Shown here: in pieces, positions 36,957-62,997 of the stretch | How positions within the stretch are numbered: the first letter of the stretch is position 1 | Layout: each line of letters opens with the position of its first letter | Assembly: GCA_030681595.1 (NCBI GenBank) | Contig: JAUXSB010000003.1 | Coordinates: forward strand, 31,207 to 95,206 | From: Candidatus Omnitrophota bacterium | GTDB taxonomy: Bacteria > Omnitrophota > Gorgyraeia > Ghiorseimicrobiales > Ghiorseimicrobiaceae | DNA: 64,000 nucleotides | Reading direction: 5' to 3' | Notes under the pieces: generated by a model | What the model was told of the DNA's origin: nothing | Databases searched by the model: none | The model's input: only the letters and a program-made list of their open reading frames with translations | Program-made: the position numbers and the translations under genes

Positions 36957-37214
36957 ATAACTAATAAGCTTTGTTAAAATTTATTTTATTTATTCTTGTT
37001 TCTAAATTATTACTATTACAACACATTGGCAACAAACAAGTTATGTATTTTTTAAAGCATCGTTAATAAATAAGGTTATATCTTTGCAACGCATAACCAT
37101 AACGTAACGCATTGCATTACAATAAGTTGTGAAAGAAGATTTCGCAAGATGCCCCTATTTTTAATAAAGCCCTGTAATAAATATTCCTCACGTAATTTTT
37201 TCTGTATTAAAGAT

Positions 37215-38770: not shown

Positions 38771-38794
38771 GCCACAACGCTTTTTGCGGATAAC

Positions 38795-40650: not shown

Positions 40651-40681
40651 ACATCTATCCTAACCTTAATTATCCGTTGTC

Positions 40682-41614: not shown

Positions 41615-41618
41615 GTTT

Positions 41619-45693: not shown

Positions 45694-45696
45694 TCT

Positions 45697-47055: not shown

Positions 47056-47063
47056 ATGAATAA

Positions 47064-47990: not shown

Positions 47991-47994
47991 ATCA

Positions 47995-48912
47995 TTATTT
48001 AATCGGCTTTATTTCGCGATCACCATAATATTTTAGGTATATATCCCAAACACCTTTACACTTATCAGCAATCTTACAAAATAAACATTTTCTAATTTTT
48101 ATTCGATTAATTATTTTTTTTGACTCGATATTTTCGTACTGTTCAATTTTATTTTTAGATATCAACCGAGGCGTACTTTCAAACGAATATTCATTTTCCT
48201 CGATAGTACCGGATATCTGCTTAAGATAGTCCCCAAAATAGCATAAGCAGGGAACATTTAAAGCCGCATAGCTAACCTCATCATCTAACCGCCCAATATC
48301 TAAAAATTTGCGAATATAATACGCGGCTGTAGAAATACGCGGCGTATATTTATAAAAATCACGCGGGGAACTAACATAAATGAGGCATGCCGTTTTTATC
48401 CCAACACGATAGATTAACTTACCTATATCATATAAATATTTATAATTCTGCTTAACAATTACCGTGTTTGTACCTATATTATCAAACCCGAATTTCCTAA
48501 GGTTGGCAATCCCTTCCTTAAGATGTTTAAAGCTCCCCTCTACCTGCGATAGATAATCGTGTAATTTTGCATTATGCCCGTTGATCGTAAAGATTATACG
48601 AGAAATTCCTGCCTCAATAGCCCTACGAGTAAAATCTTCATAAGAGAAAAACCTGCCATTTGTAGTCAAAGTGATATTTTGAAAACCTATATTTTTGGCA
48701 AATTTTAGCAAATAAAAAAAGTCCGGCCTAATCGTAACCTCCCCCCCGGCAAAAAAAGCATCAACAGCCCCAGCTTTTTTCGCTTCTTTAATCTCCCGCA
48801 TTATTTCCTGTGTCGTTTTAACAGGAATACCCCTATATGCCCTATCGCCGCAAAAACGGCAATAATTATTACAGGAATAACCGGTAAGAAATTTTGCTGT
48901 TTTATCTTGCAT
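47995..48912 (-). CDS. radical SAM protein, island paralog family
   Basis: 305 aa with CNNYCRFC, FAGGEVT, TINGHNAKLHDYLS, and C-terminal CLFCKIADKCKG...YGDREIKPIK. Confidence 0.75.
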   Translation of the reverse strand: MQDKTAKFLTGYSCNNYCRFCGDRAYRGIPVKTTQEIMREIKEAKKAGAVDAFFAGGEVTIRPDFFYLLKFAKNIGFQNITLTTNGRFFSYEDFTRRAIEAGISRIIFTINGHNAKLHDYLSQVEGSFKHLKEGIANLRKFGFDNIGTNTVIVKQNYKYLYDIGKLIYRVGIKTACLIYVSSPRDFYKYTPRISTAAYYIRKFLDIGRLDDEVSYAALNVPCLCYFGDYLKQISGTIEENEYSFESTPRLISKNKIEQYENIESKKIINRIKIRKCLFCKIADKCKGVWDIYLKYYGDREIKPIK

Positions 48913-48922
48913 TGATAATAGT

Positions 48923-50455: not shown

Positions 50456-50800
50456 TTAAAAGCGTGAAAATGTGTTTTCTTTCGAATAAATACGCAAATT
50501 ACTGTGAATCATTTTTTTAAATTTACGGTTATCCCCCTAGGTGTTTAAAAGTATATCCCGTATAGACGAAGAGGTTTTTCCGATATCATCCAAACTTTTT
50601 ATATCATTCACTGTGCCAAAATAAAATTCTCTTTTTAGCTTTTTAAATTTAGTCTCAAGCAATGGCCCCCCACAAAATATATCCCCCCGTCGCAATCAAC
50701 AGCCGGTTCAGAAGATATGATCCGCTCACCTTCCCGAATTTTGAAATTCGCTATAAAATTAATAATCTATTGATACTGGGTAAAACTTGCGTATCCATAA

Positions 50801-51742
50801 TCATTTTATCGGCTTTAATTCTGAATCGCCGTATAGCTTATAATAAGGCCGAAAAATTCCTTTGCAAAAATTATTTTTTTTACATACCCTGCATAATCTG
50901 GTTTTAGCGGCCATTGGGGTAGAGCGATTAATTTTTCGCAGGCGCAAAGAACCTTTCTTGTACTCCATTCTATCGTATTGCTCGTTAGCCTCTGCACTAC
51001 AATCATCTATATTGCCTGAAAAATCAGGCAGTACACAAGAAGGAACCCCAAAAATCCTGATATTCATCTTCAGGATTTGAGCTAAATTAAAAATGAGATG
51101 CGCTTTTTTTTCCCATTTACTTAACCTTACCGTATATTCCATGATAAATTTTTTATTTGCCGTTACGGGGACCATATTTGAAAATAACACCCTCTTTACT
51201 CCCAAATTATGCAACCCTATAATTATATCTTTTAAATATGGAAAATTATATTTTGTGACTACGGAGTTAGTTAATAAGTTAATTCGCGGATTTATGTCCA
51301 GGATATTCCGTAAGGCGCCGATTACTTTTTTGAAACTTCCGGGATTATTGGTATGACTATCATGAAGCCCAGCATTATGGCCATGCATAGAAATAACTAT
51401 CTCATCAATAAATGGGACTACCTTAGCCGCGAAAGAATACGAACTAAGCATAACGCCATTAGTGTTAAGATGCACCTCAAAACCATGGCTTTTTGCGGCA
51501 TAAAGAACATCGAAAAAATACGGATACAGCGTCGGTTCTCCCCCGGTAATAAATAGTGAACTATATTTCCCGGAATTTTTTTTAAAGAATGCGGTAATCC
51601 TATTCAAAGCAAAAGGTTGTAGGCTAAGATTCTCCTGTGCTCTGTTATCGGCTTCCAAACAAAAATCGCAATTGTTGGTACAGGCATAAGAAAGCATTAT
51701 TTCTAAGCGCTTTATTTGCTTACTCTTCTTCAATGTATGCAT
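50801..51742 (-). CDS. radical SAM protein, island paralog family
   Basis: 313 aa with CTNNCDFC, ITGGEPT, SMHGHNAGLHDSHT, and C-terminal VPSCVLP...CRVCKKNNFCKG...YGDSELKPIK. Confidence 0.75.
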   Translation of the reverse strand: MHTLKKSKQIKRLEIMLSYACTNNCDFCLEADNRAQENLSLQPFALNRITAFFKKNSGKYSSLFITGGEPTLYPYFFDVLYAAKSHGFEVHLNTNGVMLSSYSFAAKVVPFIDEIVISMHGHNAGLHDSHTNNPGSFKKVIGALRNILDINPRINLLTNSVVTKYNFPYLKDIIIGLHNLGVKRVLFSNMVPVTANKKFIMEYTVRLSKWEKKAHLIFNLAQILKMNIRIFGVPSCVLPDFSGNIDDCSAEANEQYDRMEYKKGSLRLRKINRSTPMAAKTRLCRVCKKNNFCKGIFRPYYKLYGDSELKPIK

Positions 51743-53114
51743 CTAAGTCTTGATGTTCTATATCATTAATTCTACTTTTAGCAACAGAATACTTACTTTT
51801 AAAAATATTCATAACTTTTTTGCTGTAAAAAATTTTGGATAAGATAAAATACTGTTTTTTATCCTTAAAATTTGGCCGAAAAATTAAACTGCTGTCTAAA
51901 CAATTTAAATTTCGCTTTAAAAAACTAATTTCTTTTTTAAAGGCCGGATTAAAATCAACGCCAAACAGCTTAAAAAACTTTCTTTTGTTTATCCCTTGAT
52001 AAAGAAACTTAATAATATAATATCTGCTTTCTTCATCCCTGTTCATTTTATAGCCATTATATAACTGGGCTGATTTAAAATAATTATTAATACCGGTTGA
52101 TAAACGGTAACATCTGTTTGCAAACGCATAAGATATCGCGCCGTATCCTAAGCCCAAAATAGATACCTTAAAATCTGGGGACTCAAATAAATTAATCTGC
52201 GGGTTTATTGCTTCCTTTGATAAAGCCGACCCTGCGCGGCCGATGCTTTTATAGCCAGAAAATTTCTCTAAAATATTTCTCTTGATATCAACCATCATCT
52301 TCCTTCTTCTTATGTCGCGTTGCGTAAATTTAAAATTTTTCCTTGAAAATAAGGTATTTTTATCTGGCAAAAAAGGATTAACATGAATAATATCGGGGTG
52401 CAATTTAACAACCATCAATAATGATTTAACGAATGACTGTATTGTCTGCCCCGGTAAGCCAGCCATTAAATCAATATTCAAATACGGAATGCCTATTTCT
52501 CTTGCCTGAGTAAACGCTCGGTAAACTGAATCTCGGGTTTGTTTTCTCGCCATCTTTACCAATACTTTTTTATCCAGTGTTTCTACGCCGATAGTCAGGC
52601 GCTTTAATCCTAGATCCTTAAGTAATCTTAACTTACCGCTATCAAGAGAATTCGGATGCGCATCAATGGCGAATAAAAAATAATCCTCAAAGCAGAACTT
52701 TCCTTTTATGTATTGAATCAAATCTGCAATCTGCTGGTTTCTCAATACAGTCGGCGTGCCTCCTCCTATATATAAAGAACTAAATTTAATGCCCCTGAAT
52801 AGGCTATGAAAAGAATCGATTTCTTTCTTTAAAGCTCCCAGGTAAGTATCAAGCTGAGAGAAACTCGATAGCGGGAAAGAAACACAATTACAATAAACGC
52901 ATTTTGTCTGGCAAAAAGGAATATGTATATAAAGGCATATTTTATTAAGACGGGGGTCTCGCTTTAAATTACGGGCAACGTTTTTCCATGATTTAATAAT
53001 CTCATCCTTGCTAACATTAGACCAAATCAAAGGCGGAGGATATAATACGGGATAACCATCTTCCAAAGAATGCAATGTGATATTTGTAAAAAGCGCATTA
53101 TCCATAATATCCAT
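51720..53114 (-). CDS. HemN/HemW-like radical SAM protein (class-C-like), second copy
   Basis: 464 aa with YIHIPFCQTKCVYCNC signature. Confidence 0.7.
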   Translation of the reverse strand: MDIMDNALFTNITLHSLEDGYPVLYPPPLIWSNVSKDEIIKSWKNVARNLKRDPRLNKICLYIHIPFCQTKCVYCNCVSFPLSSFSQLDTYLGALKKEIDSFHSLFRGIKFSSLYIGGGTPTVLRNQQIADLIQYIKGKFCFEDYFLFAIDAHPNSLDSGKLRLLKDLGLKRLTIGVETLDKKVLVKMARKQTRDSVYRAFTQAREIGIPYLNIDLMAGLPGQTIQSFVKSLLMVVKLHPDIIHVNPFLPDKNTLFSRKNFKFTQRDIRRRKMMVDIKRNILEKFSGYKSIGRAGSALSKEAINPQINLFESPDFKVSILGLGYGAISYAFANRCYRLSTGINNYFKSAQLYNGYKMNRDEESRYYIIKFLYQGINKRKFFKLFGVDFNPAFKKEISFLKRNLNCLDSSLIFRPNFKDKKQYFILSKIFYSKKVMNIFKSKYSVAKSRINDIEHQDLDAYIEEE

Positions 53115-54082
53115 TAATTAATAGACGTGAAATCGTCAACGCCAAAATTATCGATATAATCTTTATATGGCCCGATACAGCTGTTCCTTCTCTTGCAATC
53201 CAGGCATTTATCAATCGGGGGATTTTGAATAATTACCTCCTTAGCATATAAATTGGGGTAAGAATCTAAATTTAAAACTTTTTTATCAAACGCAATACAA
53301 AATGGAAGTTCGGAAGAAGCGTCGTTTAGTTTACCGAATCTCTCCAAAACACAAACCGGAAAACCACGGAGAAATTCTTTTGACTTTTTTAGCTTGAAGA
53401 ATAAATTACGATACGGAACCATTAAATCCTTATAGTTAATGTCCTTGGGAAATGGATGAAATTTAACATGGATGAACCCATCAAAAAAAAATCTTGGGAA
53501 GGCATAATTACAAAACCCGAGAATATCATCTAAAAAACAATAATTTTGCTTTAATACAATGGAATGAAGATTGATATTCAACTCCCTAATCTTATTTAAT
53601 GCGCGTAAAACGCTGACAAGCGCTTCAAATGAACCTTTTTTCCGGACAACTCTGTCATGCACTCTAGCATCGGCGCCATAAATCGGTATATAGAAATTAA
53701 ATTTTAAAGGCAGACGCAAGATATTATCTAATGTATCTTTTTGTCCTAATTTTAACCCGGAAGTATGCAGATTGACTTCTTCATAGCCAAGCTTATGGCT
53801 AAAATTTAAAATTTGCGCTATAAATGGATGTGCCAGAGGCTCATCACCGCTTAAAAATATCTTTTTTAACTTTAGCCGCCTTCCAATGGCTAAAAGCCCT
53901 TTTATCCTAAACAATTCGCTATTAAGGCTATTATTTTTAATTTTACCCGGCTTACCGGGATAATTGGAAGTGCAAAAAATACAGTCATAGTCGCATTTAC
54001 TTGAAATTGGCAGAAGCGCATATTCAATTTTATTTAAAAGGGGCAAATTCTTTGTCACCATAGATTTTAAGGTATTCTTCAA
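53114..54082 (-). CDS. radical SAM protein, island paralog family
   Basis: 322 aa with CDYDCIFC, LSGDEPL, and C-terminal FPVCVL...CLDCKRRNSCIG...FGVDDFTSI. Confidence 0.7.
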   Translation of the reverse strand: MKNTLKSMVTKNLPLLNKIEYALLPISSKCDYDCIFCTSNYPGKPGKIKNNSLNSELFRIKGLLAIGRRLKLKKIFLSGDEPLAHPFIAQILNFSHKLGYEEVNLHTSGLKLGQKDTLDNILRLPLKFNFYIPIYGADARVHDRVVRKKGSFEALVSVLRALNKIRELNINLHSIVLKQNYCFLDDILGFCNYAFPRFFFDGFIHVKFHPFPKDINYKDLMVPYRNLFFKLKKSKEFLRGFPVCVLERFGKLNDASSELPFCIAFDKKVLNLDSYPNLYAKEVIIQNPPIDKCLDCKRRNSCIGPYKDYIDNFGVDDFTSIN

Positions 54083-54977
54083 AGATTCCTCCGCATACAG
54101 AAAATAGCCGGCATTTTATACATTTAGCGATTTTTATTCTCGACATATCAATTATATTGCTGGAAAAATTTGATATTGATTTTCGCGTGCTTATTTCCCT
54201 ATTCCAAAGGCACATTTCTGAGTCATTCTTAAACCTTTTACCTATCCTCATCTCTGGCTCATAAACTTCAAAAGCATACATAAAATTATCCTTGCCTAAA
54301 ATACATAACGGCACGCCCCCGAATCTTAACGGTATCCCGGATTCTTTTGAATATTCTGCCAATTTAAGGATATATTGCTTAAGCTTACTAAAATTTACTA
54401 CTAAATTTTTATAATCGTTTTTCGCATTTCCGCTAGGGACCAAATTTAAGTACCTTACGCAGCGGGGGCTATATTTAGACACGACTTTAAATATATCCAG
54501 CAATGACGCGGCATTATGTTTTGTTATGGTTACATTTACAAGAAATGCTTTTTTATAATATTTCCTAACATTTTTAAAAGCTTTTATCAATATCTTAAAA
54601 CTATTCTTATTGCCGGTATGTAAATTATGCACATATTCATCCGGGCCTTGTATTGAAAGGCACAAATCGTCGATATATTCAAAAGCCCTATTGCAAAAAA
54701 CTTTATCGGTAAACATAACACCATTCGATATAACATAAATTTGATAATTTAGATTTTTTGCGGCATGTAAAATTTCAAGAAACTTAGAATGCAAAGTTGG
54801 TTCTCCTCCCATAAAATGGACTAAACGCGCTCCCCGCTTTTTCTCTTTTTTCAGAACTTTTATTATAAATCCAAACGGGAGTTCACTATTATCAAACCTT
54901 GAATTCTCGCTGCAAAAAATACAGTTATTTGAACATTTATTCGCGATAAATAATTCTATCCTGTTTATTTTAAACAT
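54030..54977 (-). CDS. radical SAM protein, island paralog family
   Basis: 315 aa with CSNNCIFC, FMGGEPT, SIQGPDEYVHNLHT, and C-terminal VPLCILG...CIKCRLFSVCGG...YGDKEFAPFK. Confidence 0.75.
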   Translation of the reverse strand: MFKINRIELFIANKCSNNCIFCSENSRFDNSELPFGFIIKVLKKEKKRGARLVHFMGGEPTLHSKFLEILHAAKNLNYQIYVISNGVMFTDKVFCNRAFEYIDDLCLSIQGPDEYVHNLHTGNKNSFKILIKAFKNVRKYYKKAFLVNVTITKHNAASLLDIFKVVSKYSPRCVRYLNLVPSGNAKNDYKNLVVNFSKLKQYILKLAEYSKESGIPLRFGGVPLCILGKDNFMYAFEVYEPEMRIGKRFKNDSEMCLWNREISTRKSISNFSSNIIDMSRIKIAKCIKCRLFSVCGGIFEEYLKIYGDKEFAPFK

Positions 54978-55977
54978 ATGATTTATGTTTTATGGAAAAA
55001 TGCAGGTCTGCCTTATAATTCATGCCCTGATTTCGTTTCCTGTCCGTACTGATAATGCATGGATACATAACAAAATCATTTTTATCGCAAATTTTAATAA
55101 GATCTTCAATCGCGTTAAGATGAGATCTTAAATTCCAGCATTTCAAAAAATTAAAAATCTCTTTGTACGAGCTACTGAAATCGGAAATATTGTTTTCGTA
55201 AATTTTTAATATTTTTAACGGAATAAGGTGGCCGCCCTTATCAAAACGGTATGCGATTTGGTAAAAAGCGGACTTTTCTTTTGTGAATTTTTCAAAGAAA
55301 TTTTCAAAATAAGCATACTGCCGCCAAGTAAGCAGGTCTCTATACCTGCCTAAACTCAAATGCTTTGAATAATTGTATATTTTAATGCTGTATGTTGAAT
55401 CGCAAAAAAAATCTATCCCAATAACACTTATTAAATAATCTTTTAAGGCAGTAATAATATCTTCGCCATTAAAATTTATAATTTTACTAATAGTTGAAAT
55501 TTTGTTAAGCCTGCTCTTTTGAGAATCAGAAATGAGTAATTCTTCTAAGTATATTTTTAATCTTGGGTATGAGCCTATAGGCCAATCCATGCCGAATGTG
55601 GTCTGATGTTTATCCCTAACTTTTATCGCATTGAAAATCTCTTTAAGCTTGAGTGTGTTGTAGCGTGTTTTATAATTATAATTCAATACGTTAAAAGCAT
55701 TAATTATTTTTTTATCAAATGATTGTTTTTCATTATAATTGTTGTAGGTAAACCTAAAATTTGAAATATGGTCATACCCTTTGATTAAAGAAAAGGAAAA
55801 GTCAAATTTAAAATGCGCCGGGACATCTCTATGGTTGGAATGTTTTATTATCGAATCTTTTACTGCGCTTACAACTTTTTTATTAATGCTACCGCCTATC
55901 TCGCCTAACAGATAGCCTATAATATTCGAGATGGATAAAAAAAATAAACGATTTCTATTTATTGCGCTATCGCCCAT
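54970..55977 (-). CDS. hypothetical protein (non-rSAM) embedded between rSAM genes
   Basis: 335 aa, Asn/Tyr/Phe-rich, no recognisable motif; overlaps both neighbours by 8-11 nt. Confidence 0.3.
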   Translation of the reverse strand: MGDSAINRNRLFFLSISNIIGYLLGEIGGSINKKVVSAVKDSIIKHSNHRDVPAHFKFDFSFSLIKGYDHISNFRFTYNNYNEKQSFDKKIINAFNVLNYNYKTRYNTLKLKEIFNAIKVRDKHQTTFGMDWPIGSYPRLKIYLEELLISDSQKSRLNKISTISKIINFNGEDIITALKDYLISVIGIDFFCDSTYSIKIYNYSKHLSLGRYRDLLTWRQYAYFENFFEKFTKEKSAFYQIAYRFDKGGHLIPLKILKIYENNISDFSSSYKEIFNFLKCWNLRSHLNAIEDLIKICDKNDFVMYPCIISTDRKRNQGMNYKADLHFSIKHKSYV

Positions 55978-56872
55978 ATTTTTTTAGGACAGGGACAAAT
56001 TCTGACCAGCCAAATTTTTCAGGATACTCTTTCCACGGCCCTTCACAAATTTTATAATGATAGCAATGCCTGCAAGACAAATTCTTCGCTTTTCCTTCTT
56101 TTTTACGTACTTTCGTAAAATCATCGATAACCTTTCCAAGGTCATAAATTATTGTTTCGGGTATAATCTTTTCAGCGATATAATCTTCATAGCCTTGCAT
56201 GAAACAATAAGGTATTGCTTCTGTCATGACTTTTTTATTAGCCTTGATACCTATACCCAAACCTTCCTTAACATAGGGCATAACCATTGAAATTCTCGGC
56301 ACAACAGAATAAAAATTATCGCCTGCCGAACCGGCAGCATGGACAAATGCAAATTGAAATTGGTCAACGCCAAGTTTTACCAAAAGCTCAGCGATTTGCG
56401 CTAGATGCCTATAATTAGGTTTAGTAATAACCGTGTTAGTGATTACAGTTTGATTTCGTTGTTTTAAATTTATTATTCCCGCGACAGTCTCGTTAAAGCT
56501 GCCGGCAGAAGAAGTCAAATAATCATGGACTTGGGCGATATGCCCATGGAGTGCCGGAGAAAATTCATTCGCCCCTGCGGCAATAATTTCATCGCAAAAC
56601 TTTTTATAATAGAATATCCTGCCGTTAGTTTGTATTTGGATAATTTTAAATTTCAATCTTTTGGCATGGCCAACCAAATCTAAAATATCGCTTCGTATTG
56701 TAGGCTCGCCTCCGGTAAAAACAACCCCATCGCAGTCTCGCCTGGCATCCTCTAAAATCTTCTTTATAGCAAGAGTATCTTTATCGCTTTGCAGGTGTCT
56801 CTTCTTGCCCTGGACGCAAAACCGGCAATGGTTATTGCAAGCAAATCCGATTTTAATATCAACTCTTTTCAT
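55967..56872 (-). CDS. radical SAM protein, island paralog family (close paralog of 39763-40650)
   Basis: 301 aa with CNNHCRFCVQGKKR, FTGGEPT, ALHGHIAQVHDYLT, and C-terminal IPYCFMQ...CRHCYHYKICEGPWKEYPEKFGWSEFVPV. Confidence 0.75.
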   Translation of the reverse strand: MKRVDIKIGFACNNHCRFCVQGKKRHLQSDKDTLAIKKILEDARRDCDGVVFTGGEPTIRSDILDLVGHAKRLKFKIIQIQTNGRIFYYKKFCDEIIAAGANEFSPALHGHIAQVHDYLTSSAGSFNETVAGIINLKQRNQTVITNTVITKPNYRHLAQIAELLVKLGVDQFQFAFVHAAGSAGDNFYSVVPRISMVMPYVKEGLGIGIKANKKVMTEAIPYCFMQGYEDYIAEKIIPETIIYDLGKVIDDFTKVRKKEGKAKNLSCRHCYHYKICEGPWKEYPEKFGWSEFVPVLKKYGR

Positions 56873-57842
56873 TTTTAAGGTAGCGCACGAAAGATGTTAA
56901 AACTTTATCTACTGCCATTGTAGAATCAAAAATCGGCTTAGAGACGCCCTCTTTAATTATTTGCCTAATATTTGCCAAACCGGGAAAATGAGTTTTTATA
57001 AAAGGAAGGCTTCTAACGGACCCGATCTTAAGTTGTTTTCTAAAAGGGGCGAAATATTTAGCCAAAAATAAATTATTTGTGAAAATGTCGCCATTACAGT
57101 CAACGACTAAACCGGCGTTAAATAAAGGAACGGTATTCGTAAAGTCTAAATTCCTAATATAGATATCCATTTTATTTCTGTTCCCTAGTATAAATCTTGC
57201 GATTTTATAAAAATTATTTTTCAACAATTTTATTTTATTTTTATCCCAATAAATAAAATAAGCCGGCAAAAAGTTAAAACGATTAAAACCCAGCTTCAGG
57301 ACATAGATAAAATTATTATAAAATACCTCTGCGGTATTGGGCGCAATAACCATATTTATAGTTACGCGGCCCGGATAAGAAGAAAAGAGTTTGTGTCTAT
57401 TTAAAATTATTGTATCAAACGATTCTTTTTTATTCTTTGTAATCCTATTGCGTAATTGGGTATCTCGATCGCCATCTAAACTTATAATTAATTCTATATC
57501 CCTGTTTGTCTTTAAAAAATCTATGATTTTATTGTTTAATAACGACCCGTTGGTCGTCAGTTGAAATTGAATTTTTTTATGCAAAATTTCCGCTTTTTTT
57601 CTTGCGAATATTATAATATCCCTTAGCAAAGCAAAATTCATTAATGGCTCGCCGCCGGAAAATTTGATTAAACAATTATCGGGCGCGATTTTCAAAAAAA
57701 AATCTACGGATATTATGGCGATATCATAATTTATCTTTGAAAAATCACGTATGGTTGGACAATACCGGCACTGGAAATTACAGCGATGGTTTATTATAAT
57801 TATTAGTTGCGGGGGGAGCGAATTAATATTACCATTGGCCAT
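56859..57842 (-). CDS. radical SAM protein adjacent to the His-Xaa-Ser precursor (HxsB/HxsC-like partner)
   Basis: INHRCNFQCRYC. I moved the start to ATG 57842 (MANGNINSLPP...), overlapping the last 4 codons of the precursor. The track N-terminal extension MAPMAPMAP is the alternate frame of the precursor's 9-bp DNA repeat. Confidence 0.6.
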   Translation of the reverse strand: MANGNINSLPPQLIIIINHRCNFQCRYCPTIRDFSKINYDIAIISVDFFLKIAPDNCLIKFSGGEPLMNFALLRDIIIFARKKAEILHKKIQFQLTTNGSLLNNKIIDFLKTNRDIELIISLDGDRDTQLRNRITKNKKESFDTIILNRHKLFSSYPGRVTINMVIAPNTAEVFYNNFIYVLKLGFNRFNFLPAYFIYWDKNKIKLLKNNFYKIARFILGNRNKMDIYIRNLDFTNTVPLFNAGLVVDCNGDIFTNNLFLAKYFAPFRKQLKIGSVRSLPFIKTHFPGLANIRQIIKEGVSKPIFDSTMAVDKVLTSFVRYLKNEKS

Positions 57843-58125
57843 GAGAACCATGGGAACTATGGGAGCCATGGGAGCCATGGGAGCCATGCGGAGTGCCCGA
57901 ATTATGCCCTCCTCTGCCGGCTGTAACAAGAGCATTAGCATGGTTATTATGCGAAGCATGGCTGGCAGCCTGGGCAGAATCAGGCTTAAACATCGCGGAT
58001 AAAACAGCTAAAGATATCCCTATCTTAGCGATATCCTTTTTGCTAATTTTACCTTCTTCTCTTAAAAGGAAATCTTTTATTTGCTTCTTGATCCGCGGTA
58101 ACCTACTTTCGTTTTTTTCTTTCAT
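57829..58125 (-). CDS. His-Xaa-Ser repeat precursor protein (HxsA-like)
   Basis: 98 aa. Charged N-region, hydrophobic IAKIGISLAVLSAMF, AQA-AS signal-peptidase-like site, then a His-rich core ASHASHNNHANALVTAGRGGHNSGTPHGSHGSHGSHSSHGSHGQW. G-rich SD 4 nt before the ATG. It is encoded by a ccatgggag tandem DNA repeat. Confidence 0.6.
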   Translation of the reverse strand: MKEKNESRLPRIKKQIKDFLLREEGKISKKDIAKIGISLAVLSAMFKPDSAQAASHASHNNHANALVTAGRGGHNSGTPHGSHGSHGSHSSHGSHGQW

Positions 58126-58154
58126 CGTACCCCCCCCTTGCTTATAGCTAGAAA

Positions 58155-58895
58155 CTACTCTACCGGCTGTCTATCGGCTTCTTTAGAAAAACTATCTTTT
58201 GAAGCTGGATAATACTGTTCAAAGAAATTTCTAAAACTTTTGCATTTCTTGCAAACACTCTCATCCCGTGATACGCTGCCTTTACATAACATGCTAAGGT
58301 ATTCATCGCTTATCTCATTACACTTATTAACATCATTAGTTTCCAACGCCTGTATATAATAAACCCTACCGGTGCACTTCTTATCCCCTTTACTGCAATA
58401 CTTAGGGTCTCTAAGCCTAAGCGCCATACAGTCATTTTTCTGGTCCTTACTTATTGAATTATCACACGCAGCAACATCTTGAGCAAAAAAACTGTCCGCT
58501 ACTTTACGGCAATCTACGGCAGTTGGTTTACCTTCCTGTTTCTGGCAGGCCTCCATAAACTTCTGGGTAACAGAACCCATCACAACCAGTTCGCTAAAAA
58601 ATCTGTGGAAACCATAGAAATTACGCCTACATAAATTAGCTTCATCTTTCGATAAATTATTGCATACACTTACGTTATCTCTAGCGGCTGCTAAACACGT
58701 CAGATATGTATCTAAAAAACCCTGCCTTTTCGAATAACCTTCAAATATAACTTTACTTAAATTGTCTATATTAAAATCATTGATTGCTTGTTCCTTGGCA
58801 TTATCTTCGGCCAAAGCATTACAATTATTAAACCCAACTAAAAAGCATCCACCCAACAAAGCTATTACTAAAAACCTGAATATGAAAGTTTTCAT
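58155..58895 (-). CDS. secreted Cys-rich lipoprotein-like protein
   Basis: Start taken at ATG 58895, which overlaps the upstream gene stop as ATGA. MKTFIFRFLVIALLGGC lipobox-like signal. About 18 Cys residues scattered through the mature part. Confidence 0.45.
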   Translation of the reverse strand: MKTFIFRFLVIALLGGCFLVGFNNCNALAEDNAKEQAINDFNIDNLSKVIFEGYSKRQGFLDTYLTCLAAARDNVSVCNNLSKDEANLCRRNFYGFHRFFSELVVMGSVTQKFMEACQKQEGKPTAVDCRKVADSFFAQDVAACDNSISKDQKNDCMALRLRDPKYCSKGDKKCTGRVYYIQALETNDVNKCNEISDEYLSMLCKGSVSRDESVCKKCKSFRNFFEQYYPASKDSFSKEADRQPVE

Positions 58896-60361
58896 AGCGC
58901 CGCCTTTCCTTTCGTGCAATCTTTTACCCAGCGTTCAAATATATTCTTATATTGACTATTCTGTAATTTTTCAAAGAGATAGTCCAAAATCGCGCCGTTA
59001 ATCTTACATCTTCCATTAAAAGGCTGAAATATATTTTTGCTTTCCGTATAATTTAATAAAGGGCACACACCGCAATATGGTTTATAGACACATTGGCTGC
59101 ACTCAGGGATATTATCTAAACAGGAGCTTATACACATCGCCTTAACAGTTGGATGCTCAATTATATTTTTATATGTGTCGGTTTTTACGTTTCCGACCTT
59201 AAATGATTCATCTCCTAGCCTGCTAAGCATCCTGCCTTCGTCGCATGTGTAGATATCACCGTTATAATTATAAGCTACTTGGCCGATACCGGCGCCGCAA
59301 GGAGAGCGCATATCCATATAGCCGGGGTCATAATCAGTAAGTATTTTATATAGGAATATGAACGCCGTCCTCTCGTAAAAATTGCTTCCTTTTAAATTTA
59401 ACTCTAAGATATAATCCAGGGATTCTTTATAAAACTCAATAAATTCTCCCCACGAATACGCGAGGCTATCCGCCTTGGGCGCCAATGCAAATGTGGACAA
59501 GGGACGTAAATGGATACAATCTAATCCACCCTTTATATACTCATCAATAATCTCTTTGGAATGGCCGAAACAACGATTGGTCACCGTCAATAATGCATTT
59601 GGGCGGTGCTTAAAACCCGTTTTTTCAAATTCTATTTTTATCTTCCTAAGCCACTTTACGGTATTGCGGTAGCTATTGATATTCTTATTAAGGCTTACGC
59701 GATTTCTATTATGTATATGTTCCGGGCCATCAAGCGATGTACAAATACTTACGTCATTTTTTATTAAAAATTTTAATATCTCATCTGTTAAACAACTCAA
59801 ATTAGAAACAAGAGAAAGCGTTAATTTTTTTTCTTTATTCTTATTTTTTTTCTTGGCATATTCAATTATAAATTTTACTGTATTAAAATTAAGTAACGGC
59901 TCTCCTCCTTGAAATTCGATAGTAATTTCGGGGGCCGGAAATTCAAAAATTTTATCAACAACAGACTTGGCTGTCGGGATATCCATATCTAAACCGGCCG
60001 TCTTAATGCCTCCGGAGTTAGCTTGACAATAGGCGCATTTGTGGTCGCATCTTAATGTTACCACTATTATATGCAAGCTAGTCCCTCGAGATAAAAAATC
60101 GTGCTTGTTTGCATATTTGGCAATTAACTTATCAAAATCTAATTTATTACGCACAAAACTTTTGTTTATAAGCTCATCGTATTTAACCTCATCCTGCTTC
60201 ATAATCTCGTTAATCTCTCCCTTTATGAAGCTATTAAACCAGCCCGGTTTTAAAAAACAGTATTCTCCTACATCATTAGTGACAAGATAGCTGCCGTTAA
60301 ACCTCTTGAAACGAAAGTATGAAACCGCTTTCTTGTCAATCAAATTTACATCTATAGCCAT
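58892..60361 (-). CDS. radical SAM/SPASM-domain maturase (HxsB-like)
   Basis: 489 aa with VVTLRCDHKCAYC rSAM motif and a C-terminal SPASM-type Cys cluster CGAG...YTCDEG...CISSCLDNIPECSQCVYKPYCGVCP. Confidence 0.65.
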   Translation of the reverse strand: MAIDVNLIDKKAVSYFRFKRFNGSYLVTNDVGEYCFLKPGWFNSFIKGEINEIMKQDEVKYDELINKSFVRNKLDFDKLIAKYANKHDFLSRGTSLHIIVVTLRCDHKCAYCQANSGGIKTAGLDMDIPTAKSVVDKIFEFPAPEITIEFQGGEPLLNFNTVKFIIEYAKKKNKNKEKKLTLSLVSNLSCLTDEILKFLIKNDVSICTSLDGPEHIHNRNRVSLNKNINSYRNTVKWLRKIKIEFEKTGFKHRPNALLTVTNRCFGHSKEIIDEYIKGGLDCIHLRPLSTFALAPKADSLAYSWGEFIEFYKESLDYILELNLKGSNFYERTAFIFLYKILTDYDPGYMDMRSPCGAGIGQVAYNYNGDIYTCDEGRMLSRLGDESFKVGNVKTDTYKNIIEHPTVKAMCISSCLDNIPECSQCVYKPYCGVCPLLNYTESKNIFQPFNGRCKINGAILDYLFEKLQNSQYKNIFERWVKDCTKGKAAL

Positions 60362-60561
60362 TCTTTATTACTCCATAAGGCATAATTGGCAAACTCGTCA
60401 ACAAATACTTTTTTAAAATCTTGATCAATATCATTTATTTCTACCTGCGTATAGTTTTTAGTATTTTTAATTATAAATTTCGCCAAATGGGCATAAGCCG
60501 AAACTGCCGCTTTAACCGCCCTCCTATTATATAATTTATTATTAAACTTTAGATTCCACAT
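60352..60561 (-). CDS. small protein coupled to the SPASM maturase (possible HxsD-like)
   Basis: 69 aa, overlapping both neighbours by 10-20 nt; DEFANYALW motif. The HxsD assignment is from memory of that family only. Confidence 0.25.
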   Translation of the reverse strand: MWNLKFNNKLYNRRAVKAAVSAYAHLAKFIIKNTKNYTQVEINDIDQDFKKVFVDEFANYALWSNKEWL

Positions 60562-60967
60562 TATCTTTTTTTACTTTTTTATTTTTACCGTATTTATCTT
60601 CCCAGGGCACAGCTATCCCAAGCGGATCATCGCGATAATCCAGCTTTTCATCAGAAGAAAACAAATCAAAATTTGAATCCGGCGGAGTAGAGTATAGGGC
60701 ACGGGCAACAACATATTCGCGTATCTTCTTATTATTTTTACTTACTATACACCTTAAAGCAGAATATAATAGTTCATTCATAAAGCTATCTTTCAGTAAC
60801 TCTATTTGCCTATCGGAAAGTTTCTTTTTGGGCTTAAGCGAAACTACCACCTTCTCGTCTTTACCGGCATCTAAATCCAGAAAAAAATAAATAGAATCAA
60901 TAAAAAGATAACACGTGCTTAAAATGGCTTCTAACGGATATATTTTGGTTCTTAGTTCTATTTTCAT
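60542..60967 (-). CDS. hypothetical protein
   Basis: 141 aa ORF translationally coupled to the downstream gene. Confidence 0.3.
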   Translation of the reverse strand: MKIELRTKIYPLEAILSTCYLFIDSIYFFLDLDAGKDEKVVVSLKPKKKLSDRQIELLKDSFMNELLYSALRCIVSKNNKKIREYVVARALYSTPPDSNFDLFSSDEKLDYRDDPLGIAVPWEDKYGKNKKVKKDNVESKV

Positions 60968-61010
60968 GCCTCACCTTTTTTAAAAAGCTAATCTGGATAT
61001 CACTACAATA

Positions 61011-61601
61011 CTATGTTTCACAACACATCATCGATCCGGCTTTAGGCAAAACCATATCCGTACAGCTTGTGCTAGCTGCTGAAGTAGTGCAAGTCCCGCC
61101 TTGCGTAAAAGGTATATAAGACAAGCGTGAAGTGCAACTCTCCCCCGCATCAGTACAGACACCATTATTATTCCAATCGCCGCATTGCATCAACGAAGGA
61201 ACATCATTAGCAGTAAAAGTCATCAGACGACAACCGAGTCCTGCGGCTTGAATTCGCGCAAGCTGAGCAGTCCGAATATTCCAGAAAGTTACAGTATTTG
61301 AGAATGTCGCTCCATCACTAATTCTTATCTCTAAATCATTAGCTCCGGCATCACCGCCGATACCGATTACATCTCCATAACCTGTCCTAACTATGGCGAA
61401 ATTCGGCCACCAAGTAACATCACCAACAGGAAAACCAACCCTAGCTCGTTGCGCTTCAAGGTCTCCGTAAACCCCAAAAGGCGAAGGGTAATAATTAGTG
61501 ATGGTGATATCTTCAGCTTGAGATAAAACAGGGGATGCGGAAAATAAAAGGCAGGAAAAAGAAAAAAGAAAAACAGCAACAATTAATTTTACCTTTTGCA
61601 T
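61011..61601 (-). CDS. secreted protein with Cys-rich C-terminus (first gene of the island)
   Basis: 196 aa with signal peptide MQKVKLIVAVFLFSFSCLLFSASPVLSQA. The C-terminal 60 aa contain 9 Cys and end in CCET. Confidence 0.4.
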   Translation of the reverse strand: MQKVKLIVAVFLFSFSCLLFSASPVLSQAEDITITNYYPSPFGVYGDLEAQRARVGFPVGDVTWWPNFAIVRTGYGDVIGIGGDAGANDLEIRISDGATFSNTVTFWNIRTAQLARIQAAGLGCRLMTFTANDVPSLMQCGDWNNNGVCTDAGESCTSRLSYIPFTQGGTCTTSAASTSCTDMVLPKAGSMMCCET

Positions 61602-61674
61602 AAAAGATAATTAGTGATACTTTATGATATAATTTTAATTTACAACTTAAATATACCTCAATTACCCACGGCTG

Positions 61675-62997
61675 TCAACTTATTTTTGCCTTGCTTTTAA
61701 GCTTTCCAATCATTACGCCTGAAGCACATTCCACTAAGAGCGCTTTTATTAACCTGTTTTTTAAATCAGCGCGGCTTTTAATCAAAACTTTAATATAGTT
61801 ATCTGTATGGCCCTGCCAAAAATACGGCTCTTCTTTAGAACGGTTTTCAATAAGCACAAAAGGTTCCTTACCTAGAAACCTCTTTCGATAAACCAAAGAA
61901 CAATCGTTGGCGACACCTTTAAGATATGCCGCTCTGCGTTTAACTGTTTGCGGCGCGATATTACTTTTAAATTTTTTTGCCGCGGCCGTAGGCTCTCTTC
62001 TGGAATAACAAAAGATATGTGTCCTTAGGGGGTTAATCTCCCTGATTAAATTAACGGTGTTTTGAAAATTTTCTTCGCTCTCACAAGGAAAACCTACTAA
62101 GACATCAGTAGTAATAGCAATACCTTCAATCAACCCTTTTATCTCATTAATCAGCCGTAAGTACGTGGCGCTATCATAATTACGATTCATCATTTTTAAA
62201 ATACTGTCGTCGCCTGACTGCAGCGGAATATGCAAATGCCGGCATAATTTTTTCGAACTGCGTAATTTTCTAATTAAGGCGGCATTAACATCCATTGGCT
62301 CAATAGAGCTTAAGCGGATGCGTAAAAGGCCGCCGATATTTTCCAGGCTTTCTATTACTTCAACTAAATTTGCCTCCTGAAGGCCATCCTTACCGTAGGA
62401 ACCTAAGCATATGCCGCATAAGACGATCTCTTTAACCCCGGTTTTTACCAAACGCTCTGCCTCAAGCGTAACCTCTGAAAGCGTACGGCTGCGGGACCGC
62501 CCACGCACATAAGGGACTTTACAGAAACTGCAAAAGTTGTTGCAGCCATCTTGTATTTTTAAAAAAGCGCGGGTATTACCTTTAAAAACGCCTATACCAT
62601 CAGGAAAAAAGCTTTTAGAGATGATGAAATCTACATCGGGCACACCGGAAAGAGACGGGGCATCTTTTTGCGCTAAACACCCTGTTACAATAATTTTAGC
62701 ATCGGGATTTTCTCTTTTTATGCGCCGGATAAGCTCACGGCTCTTTGCATCGGCAACAGCAGTAACTGTACAGGTATTAATCAGGCAGAAACGCGAAGGA
62801 CAACCGTTATCAAGCTCTTCAAAACCGGCGCGCATAAAGCGTGCCCTGATGCTCTGTGTATCGTATTGATTGACTTTACAACCAAGAGTATAAAATTTAA
62901 TGGTTCGACTACGTGCTTCGACAGGCTCAGCATCCTGAGCGGAGTCGAAGGACTCACCATTAATCCTGAGCGAAGTCGAATGGTTAATTGTTTTCAT
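61675..62997 (-). CDS. MiaB/RimO/MtaB-family radical SAM methylthiotransferase
   Basis: 440 aa with MTTase N-domain FYTLGCKVNQYDTQ, rSAM IQDGCNNFCSFC, and a C-terminal TRAM-like region. Confidence 0.75.
   Translation of the reverse strand: MKTINHSTSLRINGESFDSAQDAEPVEARSRTIKFYTLGCKVNQYDTQSIRARFMRAGFEELDNGCPSRFCLINTCTVTAVADAKSRELIRRIKRENPDAKIIVTGCLAQKDAPSLSGVPDVDFIISKSFFPDGIGVFKGNTRAFLKIQDGCNNFCSFCKVPYVRGRSRSRTLSEVTLEAERLVKTGVKEIVLCGICLGSYGKDGLQEANLVEVIESLENIGGLLRIRLSSIEPMDVNAALIRKLRSSKKLCRHLHIPLQSGDDSILKMMNRNYDSATYLRLINEIKGLIEGIAITTDVLVGFPCESEENFQNTVNLIREINPLRTHIFCYSRREPTAAAKKFKSNIAPQTVKRRAAYLKGVANDCSLVYRKRFLGKEPFVLIENRSKEEPYFWQGHTDNYIKVLIKSRADLKNRLIKALLVECASGVMIGKLKSKAKIS

What the first reader, a model, noticed from the sequence alone, without database searches (positions are those of the whole stretch)
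57829..58125. 98-aa His-Xaa-Ser repeat precursor encoded by a 9-bp tandem DNA repeat, with a secretion-signal-like N-terminus and a frame-overlapped rSAM partner
The C-terminal core HGSHGSHGSHSSHGSHGQW is a run of His-Xaa-Ser units and is encoded by ccatgggag repeats. The other reading frame of the same repeat gives the MAPMAPMAP tail that the ORF track attached to the downstream rSAM gene. Two things favour the His frame: a G-rich SD 4 nt before its ATG, and a clean rSAM start at ATG 57842 (MANGNINSL..., 20 aa before CxxxCxxC). The precursor has a long charged N-region, a hydrophobic segment and an AQA/AS cleavage-like site. It may therefore be exported or membrane-anchored, which is unusual for rSAM substrates. 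The repeat number could be variable.
Basis: partly seen in the sequence, partly recalled or inferred. Interest (0 to 1): 0.85.

Follow-up and report, generated by a model that had tools for sequence, protein, structure and literature searches.

The report
HxsA4 His-Xaa-Ser repeat precursor gene
This small gene is real and encodes a His-Gly-Ser-rich peptide that is probably exported, but it belongs to a catalogued family (HxsA4, the substrate of His-Xaa-Ser radical-SAM systems) and this exact protein already carries that name in GenBank; what is unusual is its neighbourhood of 17 radical-SAM genes.

Summary
ORF 57829..58125 (-) encodes 98 aa ending HGSHGSHGSHSSHGSHGQW, over a 9-bp tandem repeat. 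An 8-G run lies 4 nt before the ATG.

It scores above NCBIfam's cutoff for HxsA4 (NF038313). The identical protein is in GenBank as [quoted passage not shown]. So the precursor is already known.

- **Frame.** Against a 92%-identical strain, the region shared with the long rSAM ORF shows 7 synonymous and 5 non-synonymous codon changes in the His frame, but 0 and 13 in the MAPMAP frame. Four orthologous rSAM genes start after the HxsA4 stop.
- **Export.** A 12-residue hydrophobic core, a Pro and an AxA site occur in 106 of 120 relatives. This fits the 2026 report that canonical HxsA is a periplasmic antiphage effector.
- **Repeat number.** Near-identical strains differ by whole HxS units.

The context departs from the canonical HxsD-B-C-A order. 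Here it is: secreted protein, HxsD, HxsD-like, HxsB, a conserved secreted Cys-rich helical protein, HxsA4, a truncated HxsB-like rSAM, then an array. The block holds 17 rSAM genes and an ABBA-prenyltransferase-fold protein, and has low GC. Function in Omnitrophota is untested.

The parts
57829..58125 (-). hxsA4 coding sequence (98 aa plus stop), the His-Xaa-Ser repeat precursor
   Evidence: ORF. NF038313 HxsA4 scores 60.7 bits against a cutoff of 55. The identical GenBank protein is named HxsA4. Against L011 there are 19 synonymous and 7 non-synonymous codon changes.
58130..58137 (-). SD-like run of eight G, 4 nt upstream of ATG 58125
   Evidence: Sequence. The equivalent position reads GGGGGGAG in L004, GGAGGGG in L011 and GGAGG in L001.
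58024..58125 (-). Residues 1-34: long, charged, conserved N-region (LPxIKKxIKDFLLxEEGKISKK). Inferred to be the leader recognised by the maturases.
   Evidence: This is the most conserved part of the family. F19 is invariant, and P10, K14, L20, E23, E24, G25 and K26 are at least 90% conserved. The role as a recognition leader is inference.
57967..58023 (-). Residues 35-53: 12-residue hydrophobic core (IGISLAVLSAMF), then KPDS, then AQA. This is a signal-peptidase-I-like signal.
   Evidence: All 106 relatives that carry the EEGK-type motif (of 120 examined) have an AxA-like site. The first core His lies about 19-22 residues after the start of the hydrophobic core. No SignalP-type predictor was available.
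57832..57966 (-). Residues 54-98: predicted mature core (45 aa; 10 His, 9 Ser, 9 Gly, 1 Arg, no acidic residue) ending in Trp
   Evidence: Composition. H62, H74 and H83 are invariant, and the GGHxS entry motif and the C-terminal W are conserved.
57838..57893 (.). 9-bp tandem DNA repeat that encodes the HxS units (residues 80-94 are five HxS units)
   Evidence: TRF: period 9, 6.1 copies, 87% matches. Strain L011 has a 9-bp in-frame insertion here.
56859..57842 (-). Radical-SAM gene (327 aa from ATG 57842), HxsB-like N-terminal half without a SPASM domain. It overlaps the hxsA4 stop by 14 nt.
   Evidence: Pfam Radical_SAM only. It matches the HxsB model over profile positions 82-228, below cutoff. 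CNFQCRYC starts at residue 21 and there is no C-terminal Cys cluster. Orthologues at 37-44% identity directly follow HxsA4 in L001, L006, L007 and L008.
55967..56872 (-). HxsC-like radical-SAM gene (301 aa), the best-conserved rSAM of this type of system
   Evidence: HxsC4 model 166 bits (cutoff 500) and HxsC model 104 bits (cutoff 268). Orthologues at 54-65% identity occur in L001, L002, L006, L007 and L008.
54970..55977 (-). 335-aa protein predicted to have the ABBA/PT-barrel aromatic prenyltransferase fold (accessory)
   Evidence: No Pfam or NCBIfam hit. AF2 gives pLDDT 79 and five alpha-alpha-beta-beta repeats. Foldseek against PDB matches DMATS, IptA, PriB, PagF, PirF and FunA at E down to 3.7e-9, TM 0.67-0.71.
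38795..54977 (-). Co-directional array of 14 further radical-SAM genes: 11 HxsC-like genes (one with two domains), 2 HemN-like and 1 B12-binding
58155..58895 (-). 246-aa secreted, Cys-rich, all-helical protein. It is conserved between hxsB and hxsA4, and its ATG overlaps the hxsB stop as ATGA.
58892..60361 (-). hxsB, the radical-SAM/SPASM maturase
   Evidence: TIGR03978 scores 490 bits against a cutoff of 370, full length.
60352..60561 (-). HxsD-like small protein (69 aa)
   Evidence: NF038315 scores 64.8 bits against a cutoff of 41.
60542..60967 (-). hxsD (141 aa)
   Evidence: TIGR03976 scores 55.4 bits against a cutoff of 50.
61011..61601 (-). 196-aa secreted protein, probably the first gene of the operon
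   Evidence: Its N-terminal 55 aa are conserved upstream of hxsD in six other loci. The best promoter-like match in the region (TTGACA-17-TATATT, 11 of 12) lies at 61678..61650 (-). That is a consensus match only.

Best explanation
The ORF is hxsA4. It is the ribosomally made substrate of a His-Xaa-Ser (HXS) radical-SAM maturation system of the type found in Omnitrophota and Elusimicrobiota.

Shown by sequence and comparison:
- It is translated in the His frame from ATG 58125, behind a G-rich SD site.
- The pre-peptide has three parts. The first is a 34-residue conserved charged N-region. The second is a 12-residue hydrophobic core followed by Pro and AQA. The third is a 45-residue His/Ser/Gly core that starts with a conserved HxNxF...GGHxS segment, continues with a variable number of HxS units and ends in Trp.
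- It sits in one co-directional gene block with HxsD, an HxsD-like protein, HxsB, a conserved secreted helical Cys-rich protein, a truncated HxsB-like rSAM that overlaps its stop codon, and HxsC-like rSAM paralogues.

Inferred by analogy with the E. coli HXS system (PMC13128918) and with RiPP (ribosomally made, post-translationally modified peptide) logic:
- The conserved N-region is the handle by which cytoplasmic HxsB, the HxsC-like enzymes and HxsD bind the peptide.
- They install radical-SAM modifications on or near the HxS units.
- The peptide is then exported by the Sec pathway and cut after AQA.
- This releases a modified His-rich peptide of about 45 aa into the periplasm, where it may act together with the co-encoded secreted helical protein.

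The end function (a block to phage DNA entry, as in E. coli, or metal binding) is not established for this variant.

The 9-bp DNA repeat makes the number of HxS units change between strains, probably by slippage.
For: - **Family membership:** NF038313 scores 60.7 bits against a cutoff of 55, and the identical GenBank protein is named HxsA4.
- **Partner genes above curated cutoffs:** HxsB 490 (cutoff 370), HxsD 55.4 (cutoff 50), HxsD-like 64.8 (cutoff 41).
- **Conserved architecture:** the arrangement recurs in L001, L002, L003, L006, L007 and L008, and in simpler form in an Elusimicrobiota locus.
- **Frame:** 7 synonymous and 5 non-synonymous codon changes in the His frame, against 0 and 13 in the alternative frame, over 57843..57959. 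Overall the gene shows 19 and 7. Orthologous rSAM genes start after the HxsA4 stop.
- **Signal peptide:** the pattern holds in 106 of 120 relatives (alignment).
- **Published precedent:** canonical HxsA has a signal peptide, is periplasmic, needs HxsB, HxsC and HxsD for processing, and carries a +8 Da modification in an HxS unit.
- **Link to canonical HxsA:** the HxsA4 profile aligns to Aeromonas HxsA across the GGHxSHxSH segment (hhalign probability 82%, E 1e-5).
- **Repeat polymorphism:**
Against: - No experiment exists for any HxsA4-type system.
- No signal-peptide predictor was available, so the export call rests on hand-read rules.
- None of the local rSAMs reaches the curated HxsC cutoff (best 104 bits against 267.9) or the HxsC4 cutoff (best whole-protein score 216.8 bits for the two-domain gene 42644..44734, and 166 for the best single-domain gene, against 500).
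- HxsA4 lacks the peptidoglycan-binding domain of canonical HxsA. Its repeat 'x' residues are Gly, Ser or Ala rather than Arg. The electrostatic DNA-binding model proposed for E. coli therefore transfers poorly.
- One HxsA4-like gene (L009) has no rSAM gene close to it; the only one in the 20-kb locus lies about 10 kb away on the opposite strand at the locus edge.
- It is not shown that all 17 rSAM genes act on this peptide.
Confidence: 0.8

Rival explanations
1. The peptide is not cleaved. The hydrophobic segment acts as an N-in/C-out signal anchor, so the modified His-rich tail is displayed on the periplasmic face of the inner membrane.
For: The very long basic N-region (12 K/R in 34 residues) would favour N-in retention. 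In E. coli, HxsA processing was not simple signal-peptide removal.
Against: The uncharged core is only 12 residues between K34 and K47. That is short for a membrane helix and typical of a signal-peptide h-region. A helix-breaking Pro and an AxA site follow at the canonical distance in 106 of 120 relatives examined.
Confidence: 0.15
2. The mature peptide is mainly a periplasmic metal-binding molecule for Ni, Zn or Cu (buffer, chaperone or metallophore) rather than an antiphage effector.
For: The core has 10 His in 45 residues, in a His-tag-like (His-Gly-Ser)n array with no acidic and one basic residue. The locus is syntenic with housekeeping genes (MiaB-like, RsmE, AMMECR1) both here and in L002, unlike typical mobile defence islands.
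Against: No metal transporter or metalloregulator was seen in the block. The only experimental study of an HXS system found antiphage activity. Hypervariable repeat number among strains is more typical of conflict genes.
Confidence: 0.25
3. It is the precursor of a heavily tailored secreted RiPP natural product that acts on other cells. Omnitrophota are thought to be host-dependent or predatory. Many of the 17 rSAM enzymes and the prenyltransferase-fold protein would decorate it.
For: The gene block contains one precursor, 17 rSAM genes and an ABBA prenyltransferase-fold protein. The peptide has a conserved C-terminal Trp or Trp-Cys, which are plausible prenyl acceptors.
Against: No RiPP peptidase or ABC exporter was recognised among the block genes scanned. 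The prenyltransferase-like gene is present in only a few loci. Nothing shows that the distal rSAM genes act on HxsA4.
Confidence: 0.15
4. The His ORF is spurious, and the repeat encodes a Met-Ala-Pro N-terminal extension of the rSAM enzyme.
For: Automatic gene callers chose a MAPMAP start for the rSAM gene in the related contigs L004 and L011. The longest ORF in the window is 366 aa.
Against: In that frame there are 0 synonymous and 13 non-synonymous changes against L011, and ATG 57959 is ATT in L004. The extension is absent from all four orthologues. The His frame matches a curated family with about 200 members.
Confidence: 0.02

Closest known systems
HxsA4 family (NCBIfam NF038313, 'His-Xaa-Ser repeat protein HxsA4'); HxsA3 (NF038309) is the next nearest
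   Same: It gives a full-length match above the curated cutoff (residues 9-98 on profile positions 2-93). The identical sequence is annotated HxsA4 in GenBank (MDP1852669.1). It shares the leader, the hydrophobic core with AxA, the GGHxS segment, the HxS units and the C-terminal Trp with about 200 relatives from Omnitrophota and Elusimicrobiota.
   Different: Nothing at the protein level. The neighbourhood is larger than the simple Elusimicrobiota form (HxsD, HxsB, HxsD', a 342-aa protein, HxsA4 and one 381-aa rSAM). No local rSAM reaches the HxsC4 cutoff.
Canonical HXS antiphage system HxsD-HxsB-HxsC-HxsA (Li et al. 2026, PMC13128918). From my own knowledge, the family was first defined bioinformatically by Haft and Basu in 2011.
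   Same: HxsB and HxsD equivalogs are present. The substrate has an N-terminal export signal and tandem HxS units entered by a G-G/A-H-x-S motif. The rSAM genes are adjacent.
   Different: HxsA4 is 98 aa, against 192-214 aa for canonical HxsA. It has no peptidoglycan-binding domain. Its repeat 'x' residues are Gly/Ser/Ala, not Arg/Ser. It has a 34-residue conserved N-region, against a 22-residue plain signal peptide. The TIGR03979 HxsA model does not match. The gene order differs from D-B-C-A, which 99.6% of canonical systems follow. There are extra parts: an HxsD-like protein, a secreted helical Cys-rich protein, a truncated HxsB-like rSAM and many HxsC-like paralogues. The phylum is Omnitrophota, whereas 99.7% of canonical systems are in Pseudomonadota. 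No antiphage test has been done.
Radical-SAM/SPASM RiPP systems with leader-core precursors, such as the SCIFF, ranthipeptide PapA/PapB and CcpM families
   Same: A small precursor sits next to rSAM maturases. The N-terminal part is conserved and the C-terminal core is repetitive and variable. The rSAM after HxsA4 scores best against PapB, CcpM and SCIFF-type maturase models, all below cutoff.
   Different: The conserved leader is fused to a Sec-type signal. No dedicated peptidase or ABC exporter was recognised. The targets are His/Ser/Gly units, not Cys-containing motifs (the core has no Cys).
ABBA (PT-barrel) aromatic and peptide prenyltransferases (DMATS, IptA, PriB, cyanobactin PagF/PirF/PatF, His prenyltransferase FunA). 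This applies to the neighbouring 335-aa protein only.
   Same: The predicted fold matches at TM 0.67-0.71 and E down to 3.7e-9. Lys-x-Tyr pairs are invariant on barrel strands.
   Different: There is no sequence-level family match. Activity and substrate are unknown. It is present in only a few HxsA4 loci.

Membership tests
HxsA4 (NF038313) | Whole-protein score at or above NCBIfam's curated cutoff of 55 bits | tested here: met
   60.7 bits, E 2e-16, residues 9-98 on profile positions 2-93 of 93.
HxsA4 (NF038313) | C-terminal tandem His-Xaa-Ser units | tested here: met
   HGS-HGS-HGS-HSS-HGS then HGQW. The family range is 3-25 H-x-x triplets.
HxsA4 (NF038313) | Conserved N-terminal region shared with family members | tested here: met
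   The LPxIKKxIKDFLLxEEGKISKK motif is aligned in 42 sequences, and the FLxEEGK motif occurs in 102 of 120.
His-Xaa-Ser (HXS) system | Adjacent HxsB radical-SAM/SPASM maturase (TIGR03978, cutoff 370) | tested here: met
   58892..60361 scores 490.4 bits, full length.
His-Xaa-Ser (HXS) system | HxsD (TIGR03976, cutoff 50) | tested here: met
   60542..60967 scores 55.4 bits. In addition, the HxsD-like protein (NF038315) scores 64.8 bits against a cutoff of 41.
His-Xaa-Ser (HXS) system | HxsC equivalog (TIGR03977, cutoff 267.9) or HxsC4 (NF038332, cutoff 500) | tested here: not met
   For single-domain genes the best scores are 104 (HxsC) and 166 (HxsC4), both for 55967..56872. The two-domain gene 42644..44734 scores 186.7 and 216.8 as a whole protein. 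Twelve HxsC-like paralogues have these as their best or near-best families, all below cutoff.
Canonical HxsA (TIGR03979) as in the E. coli antiphage HXS system | Match to the HxsA model, and a C-terminal peptidoglycan-binding domain | tested here: not met
   There is no TIGR03979 hit at E<=0.01 and no Pfam domain. Only the GGHxSHxS segment aligns to Aeromonas HxsA.
Canonical HXS system | Gene order hxsD-hxsB-hxsC-hxsA | tested here: not met
   The order here is hxsD, hxsD-like, hxsB, secreted protein, hxsA4, then rSAM genes. The canonical order is described and seen in Aeromonas.
Canonical HXS system | Signal peptide and periplasmic location of the HxS protein | tested here: inconclusive
   An h-region, Pro and AxA pattern is present and conserved. 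No predictor or experiment was available.
Canonical HXS system | rSAM-dependent covalent modification (+8 Da) and antiphage activity | not testable with these tools
   These are known only for the E. coli system. PADLOC-DB 2.0 gave no HXS-system match (only generic viperin hits for the rSAM proteins).

The most novel reading that the evidence does not exclude
In Omnitrophota the HXS system has become a much larger machine. A single exported His-rich peptide whose repeat number varies between strains would be processed by many of the 17 clustered radical-SAM enzymes: 12 diverged HxsC-like paralogues, 2 HemN-like, 1 B12-dependent, 1 truncated HxsB-like and HxsB itself. In some strains an ABBA-fold prenyltransferase would add a further modification. 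The peptide would then work in the periplasm with a dedicated disulfide-rich helical partner protein that has no solved structural relative. That would be a new class of heavily modified envelope effector, distinct in chemistry and probably in target from the E. coli antiphage HxsA.
Probability: 0.25. Interest if true: 0.7.

Novelty: already known. Interest (0 to 1): 0.35.

Why it matters
The precursor itself adds nothing new. It is a correctly recognised member of a curated family. The family's founding system was shown in 2026 to be a periplasmic antiphage defence.

What may matter is the setting. HxsA4-type loci in Omnitrophota have never been studied. They lack the peptidoglycan anchor and the basic repeats on which the published mechanism rests. 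They also carry one of the densest runs of radical-SAM genes one is likely to see: 17 genes within about 21.6 kb of a ~26-kb low-GC block.

If those enzymes act on this one peptide, the locus would be a rich source of new radical-SAM peptide chemistry. It would also test whether HxS peptides have a general role in the envelope beyond phage defence.

The strain-level changes in repeat number give a simple marker for diversifying pressure on the peptide.

Tried and rejected
- **Genome scan with the 327-aa rSAM.** The scan of genome contigs returned one irrelevant distant hit in Akkermansia. Orthologues were obtained instead through contigs that carry HxsA4 homologues.
- **Word-index homologue search for the 254-aa neighbour.** It found only one near-identical protein. 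The exhaustive phmmer search was needed to find relatives.
- **PADLOC.** There was no HXS match, only generic viperin hits for the rSAMs. It therefore says nothing about defence.
- **Relatedness of the L009 272-aa neighbour to the 246-aa protein.** BLASTP gave E 0.18 and hhalign gave 10% probability. The result is inconclusive.
- **A second precursor in the window.** A family HMM and an HxS regular expression over all six frames found only this ORF and its antisense shadow. The 345-bp gap at 50455..50801 holds no convincing precursor.
- **Own promoter or terminator for hxsA4.** None was found, and the total number of matches in the region is at chance level.
- **RNA elements.** Rfam and tRNA scans found only a tRNA-Ser at 30838..30927.
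- **Literature.** No paper on HxsA4, HxsC4 or Omnitrophota rSAM arrays was found.
Full report
**1. What is in the sequence**

On the minus strand, an ORF runs from ATG 58125 to TAA 57829 and encodes 98 aa: MKEKNESRLPRIKKQIKDFLLREEGKISKKDIAKIGISLAVLSAMFKPDSAQAASHASHNNHANALVTAGRGGHNSGTPHGSHGSHGSHSSHGSHGQW.

- Eight G (58137..58130) lie 4 nt upstream of the ATG.
- Tandem Repeats Finder reports a 9-bp repeat at 57838..57893 with 6.1 copies and 87% matches. Three copies are perfect.
- On the coding strand the unit is TCC-CAT-GGC. Shifted by one base it reads ATG-GCT-CCC. This is why the longest ORF of the downstream radical-SAM (rSAM) gene (56859..57959, 366 aa) begins ...MAPMAPMAPIVPMVLMANGN.
- ATG 57842 gives MANGNINSL..., with CNFQCRYC starting at residue 21. 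It overlaps the end of the small ORF by 14 nt.

**2. What it is**

The 98-aa protein scores 60.7 bits against NCBIfam NF038313, "His-Xaa-Ser repeat protein HxsA4". The curated cutoff is 55. It scores 51.8 against HxsA3, below that model's cutoff. It has no Pfam domain.

A search of 5.8 billion proteins returned about 200 relatives. The top hit is the identical sequence, already named [quoted passage not shown] in GenBank (MDP1852669.1, on a 307-kb contig). Other named members come from Omnitrophota and Elusimicrobiota.

The identity of the ORF is thus settled and already recorded.

**3. Which frame is translated**

Two closely related strains were recovered: L004 (about 96% DNA identity) and L011 (about 92%).

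| Region and comparison | Frame | Synonymous | Non-synonymous |
|---|---|---|---|
| 57843..57959 vs L011 | His frame | 7 | 5 |
| 57843..57959 vs L011 | rSAM-extension frame | 0 | 13 |
| Whole small ORF vs L011 | His frame | 19 | 7 |

The start codon of the 366-aa ORF (57959) is ATT in L004.

In four other Omnitrophota loci the orthologous rSAM gene (37-44% identity) begins after the HxsA4 stop codon. In three of them it starts two residues before the block that aligns to LIIIINHRCNF. The L008 call starts later and lacks that block.

The Met-Ala-Pro head is therefore an ORF-calling artefact. The same artefact was made by the gene callers on L004 and L011.

ATG 57842 is the most likely rSAM start. 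ATG 57851 cannot be excluded. An SD-like G-rich element before the small ORF is conserved: GGGGGGAG in L004, GGAGGGG in L011 and GGAGG in L001.

**4. Anatomy of the peptide**

An alignment of 42 relatives and a survey of 120 show a constant plan with four elements.

- **(i) A long charged N-region.** It carries the family's most conserved motif, LPxIKKxIKDFLLxEEGKISKK. F19 is invariant, and P10, K14, L20, E23-K26 are at least 90% conserved.
- **(ii) A short uncharged core.** Here it is IGISLAVLSAMF, 12 residues between K34 and K47.
- **(iii) A Pro and a small-x-small site.** Here it is KPDSAQA|A. Such a site is present in all 106 relatives that carry the EEGK-type motif, and the first core His lies about 19-22 residues after the start of the hydrophobic core.
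- **(iv) A core.** It has invariant H62, H74 and H83, a GGHxS entry motif, a run of H-x-x triplets (3 to 25 across the family) and a C-terminal GQW or GGWC.

A 12-residue hydrophobic stretch is too short for a membrane helix and typical of a signal-peptide h-region. The simplest reading is a Sec/signal-peptidase-I signal with an unusually long, conserved n-region. The predicted mature peptide is 45 aa with 10 His, 9 Ser, 9 Gly, one Arg and no acidic residue. No signal-peptide predictor was available, so this step is reasoned from rules and not computed.

**5. Repeat-number variation**

L004 has the same repeat tract. L011 has a 9-bp in-frame insertion, which adds one His-Ala-Ser unit.

Other 90%-identity clusters contain members that are 95-100% identical outside the repeat but differ by 1, 3, 4, 5 or 9 whole units.

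One caveat is that these are short-read assemblies. The differences are shorter than a read, so they are probably real.

**6. The neighbourhood**

All genes from 61601 down to 38795 are on the minus strand, mostly overlapping or nearly abutting. In order they are:

| Coordinates | Product | Evidence |
|---|---|---|
| 61011..61601 | 196-aa secreted protein | |
| 60542..60967 | HxsD, 55.4 bits (cutoff 50) | |
| 60352..60561 | HxsD-like, 64.8 bits (cutoff 41) | |
| 58892..60361 | HxsB, 490 bits (cutoff 370) | |
| 58155..58895 | 246-aa secreted Cys-rich protein; its ATG overlaps the hxsB stop as ATGA | |
| 57829..58125 | hxsA4 | |
| 56859..57842 | 327-aa rSAM resembling the N-terminal half of HxsB, without a SPASM domain | |
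| 55967..56872 | 301-aa HxsC-like rSAM | |
| 54970..55977 | 335-aa protein with no family match | |
| 38795..54977 | 14 more rSAM genes | |

In total the block holds 17 rSAM genes with 18 domains:
- 12 HxsC-like genes of about 300 aa. They have an N-terminal CxxxCxxC and a C-terminal CxxCx5CxG, and are 23-50% identical to one another.
- 2 HemN-like genes.
- 1 B12-binding gene.
- The truncated HxsB-like gene.
- HxsB itself.

None reaches the curated HxsC or HxsC4 cutoff.

The order HxsD, small HxsD-like, HxsB, secreted protein, HxsA4, rSAM run recurs in six other Omnitrophota contigs. The 301-aa rSAM is the best conserved, at 54-65% identity.

An Elusimicrobiota locus shows a simpler form with one 381-aa rSAM after HxsA4. 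One HxsA4-like gene (L009) is paired only with a secreted Cys-rich protein. The only rSAM gene in that 20-kb locus lies about 10 kb away at its edge, on the opposite strand.

The family HMM and a regular-expression scan find no second precursor in the window. The block from about 35.4 to 61.7 kb has GC 0.31-0.38, against 0.41-0.44 in the flanks.

**7. Two neighbours looked at more closely**

The 335-aa protein has only four close homologues. It folds, at pLDDT 79, into five alpha-alpha-beta-beta repeats. These match ABBA/PT-barrel prenyltransferases: DMATS, IptA and PriB, the cyanobactin enzymes PagF, PirF and PatF, and the histidine prenyltransferase FunA. E-values go down to 3.7e-9 with TM 0.67-0.71. 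Lys-x-Tyr pairs on the strands are invariant. It is an accessory gene, with a homologue only in L008 among the compared loci.

**8. How it most likely works**

The only experimental work on an HXS system is Li et al. 2026 (PMC13128918). It reports the following for the E. coli system:
- HxsB, HxsC and HxsD are each needed for its N-terminal processing.
- A +8 Da modification maps to an SHRSS motif.
- The matured protein is periplasmic and blocks phage DNA entry, probably by electrostatic DNA binding.

By analogy, and from the anatomy above, I infer three steps. First, the conserved N-region of HxsA4 is the handle for the cytoplasmic maturases. Second, the core is modified. Third, the peptide is exported and cut after AQA.

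Two features caution against carrying over the end function. HxsA4 has no peptidoglycan anchor, and its repeat positions are Gly/Ser/Ala rather than Arg. Only the G-G/A-H-x-S-H-x-S segment aligns between the HxsA4 profile and Aeromonas HxsA. The always-adjacent secreted helical protein may supply in trans what the anchor domain supplies in cis. That idea is speculation.

**9. Comparison and verdict**

The ORF is a member of HxsA4. It meets the model cutoff, the repeat and leader features, and the requirement for HxsB and HxsD partners.

It is not a canonical HxsA. There is no TIGR03979 match, no PG-binding domain, a different gene order and no HxsC equivalog.

However, the thing is already catalogued and this exact protein is already named, so novelty is "already known" and interest is modest.

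The residual interest lies in the uncharacterised Omnitrophota-type architecture:
- a single repeat-variable exported peptide;
- a dedicated secreted partner of unknown fold;
- 17 rSAM genes and, here, a prenyltransferase-fold protein.

No paper in the searchable library describes this architecture.

Noticed in passing
window 38795..60361 (-): The block holds 17 radical-SAM genes (18 domains) in one co-directional run. Twelve are diverged HxsC-like paralogues of about 300 aa, including one two-domain fusion (42644..44734, 696 aa). There are also two HemN-like genes (45697..47055 and 51720..53114), one B12-binding gene (48923..50455), a truncated HxsB-like gene and HxsB. None reaches a curated HxsC or HxsC4 cutoff.
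   Followed up: partly
window 54970..55977 (-): A 335-aa protein with no sequence-family match is predicted to have the ABBA/PT-barrel prenyltransferase fold. It matches DMATS, IptA, PriB, PagF, PirF and FunA at E down to 3.7e-9. It sits inside the rSAM array, next to a His-rich, Trp-terminated peptide, and is present in only a few related loci.
   Followed up: partly
window 58155..58895 (-): A secreted, Cys-rich, all-helical protein (AF2 pLDDT 92) always lies between hxsB and hxsA4. It has 119 cluster representatives and no solved structural relative. Its true start is probably ATG 58895, which overlaps the hxsB stop as ATGA, rather than the TTG 58919 of the ORF list.
   Followed up: partly
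window ~35400..61700: The whole Hxs/rSAM block has GC 0.31-0.38, against 0.41-0.44 in the flanks. Even so, its junction with the MiaB-like, RsmE and AMMECR1 genes is conserved in another Omnitrophota contig (L002).
   Followed up: partly
window 61011..61601 (-) and 61650..61678 (-): A 196-aa secreted protein with a Cys-rich C-terminus precedes hxsD. Its first 55 residues are conserved at the same position in six other loci. The best sigma-70-like match in the region (TTGACA-17-TATATT) lies just upstream and may mark the operon start.
   Followed up: no
L009 9208..10330: An HxsA4-like gene (109 aa) overlaps a 272-aa secreted Cys-rich gene. The only rSAM gene in that 20-kb locus lies about 10 kb away at its edge, on the opposite strand. 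This suggests that the pairing of peptide and secreted protein can exist apart from the maturase genes. Homology of the 272-aa protein to the window's 246-aa protein is unproven.
   Followed up: partly
window 57751..58002 (+): An antisense 83-aa ORF (…MGTMGAMGAMGAM…) over the same repeat weakly matches the HxsA4 HMM (E 3.5e-6). The match comes only from low-complexity mirroring and is an artefact.
   Followed up: yes
window 30838..30927 (-): tRNA-Ser (anticodon CGA). It is the only RNA gene detected in the window.
   Followed up: no
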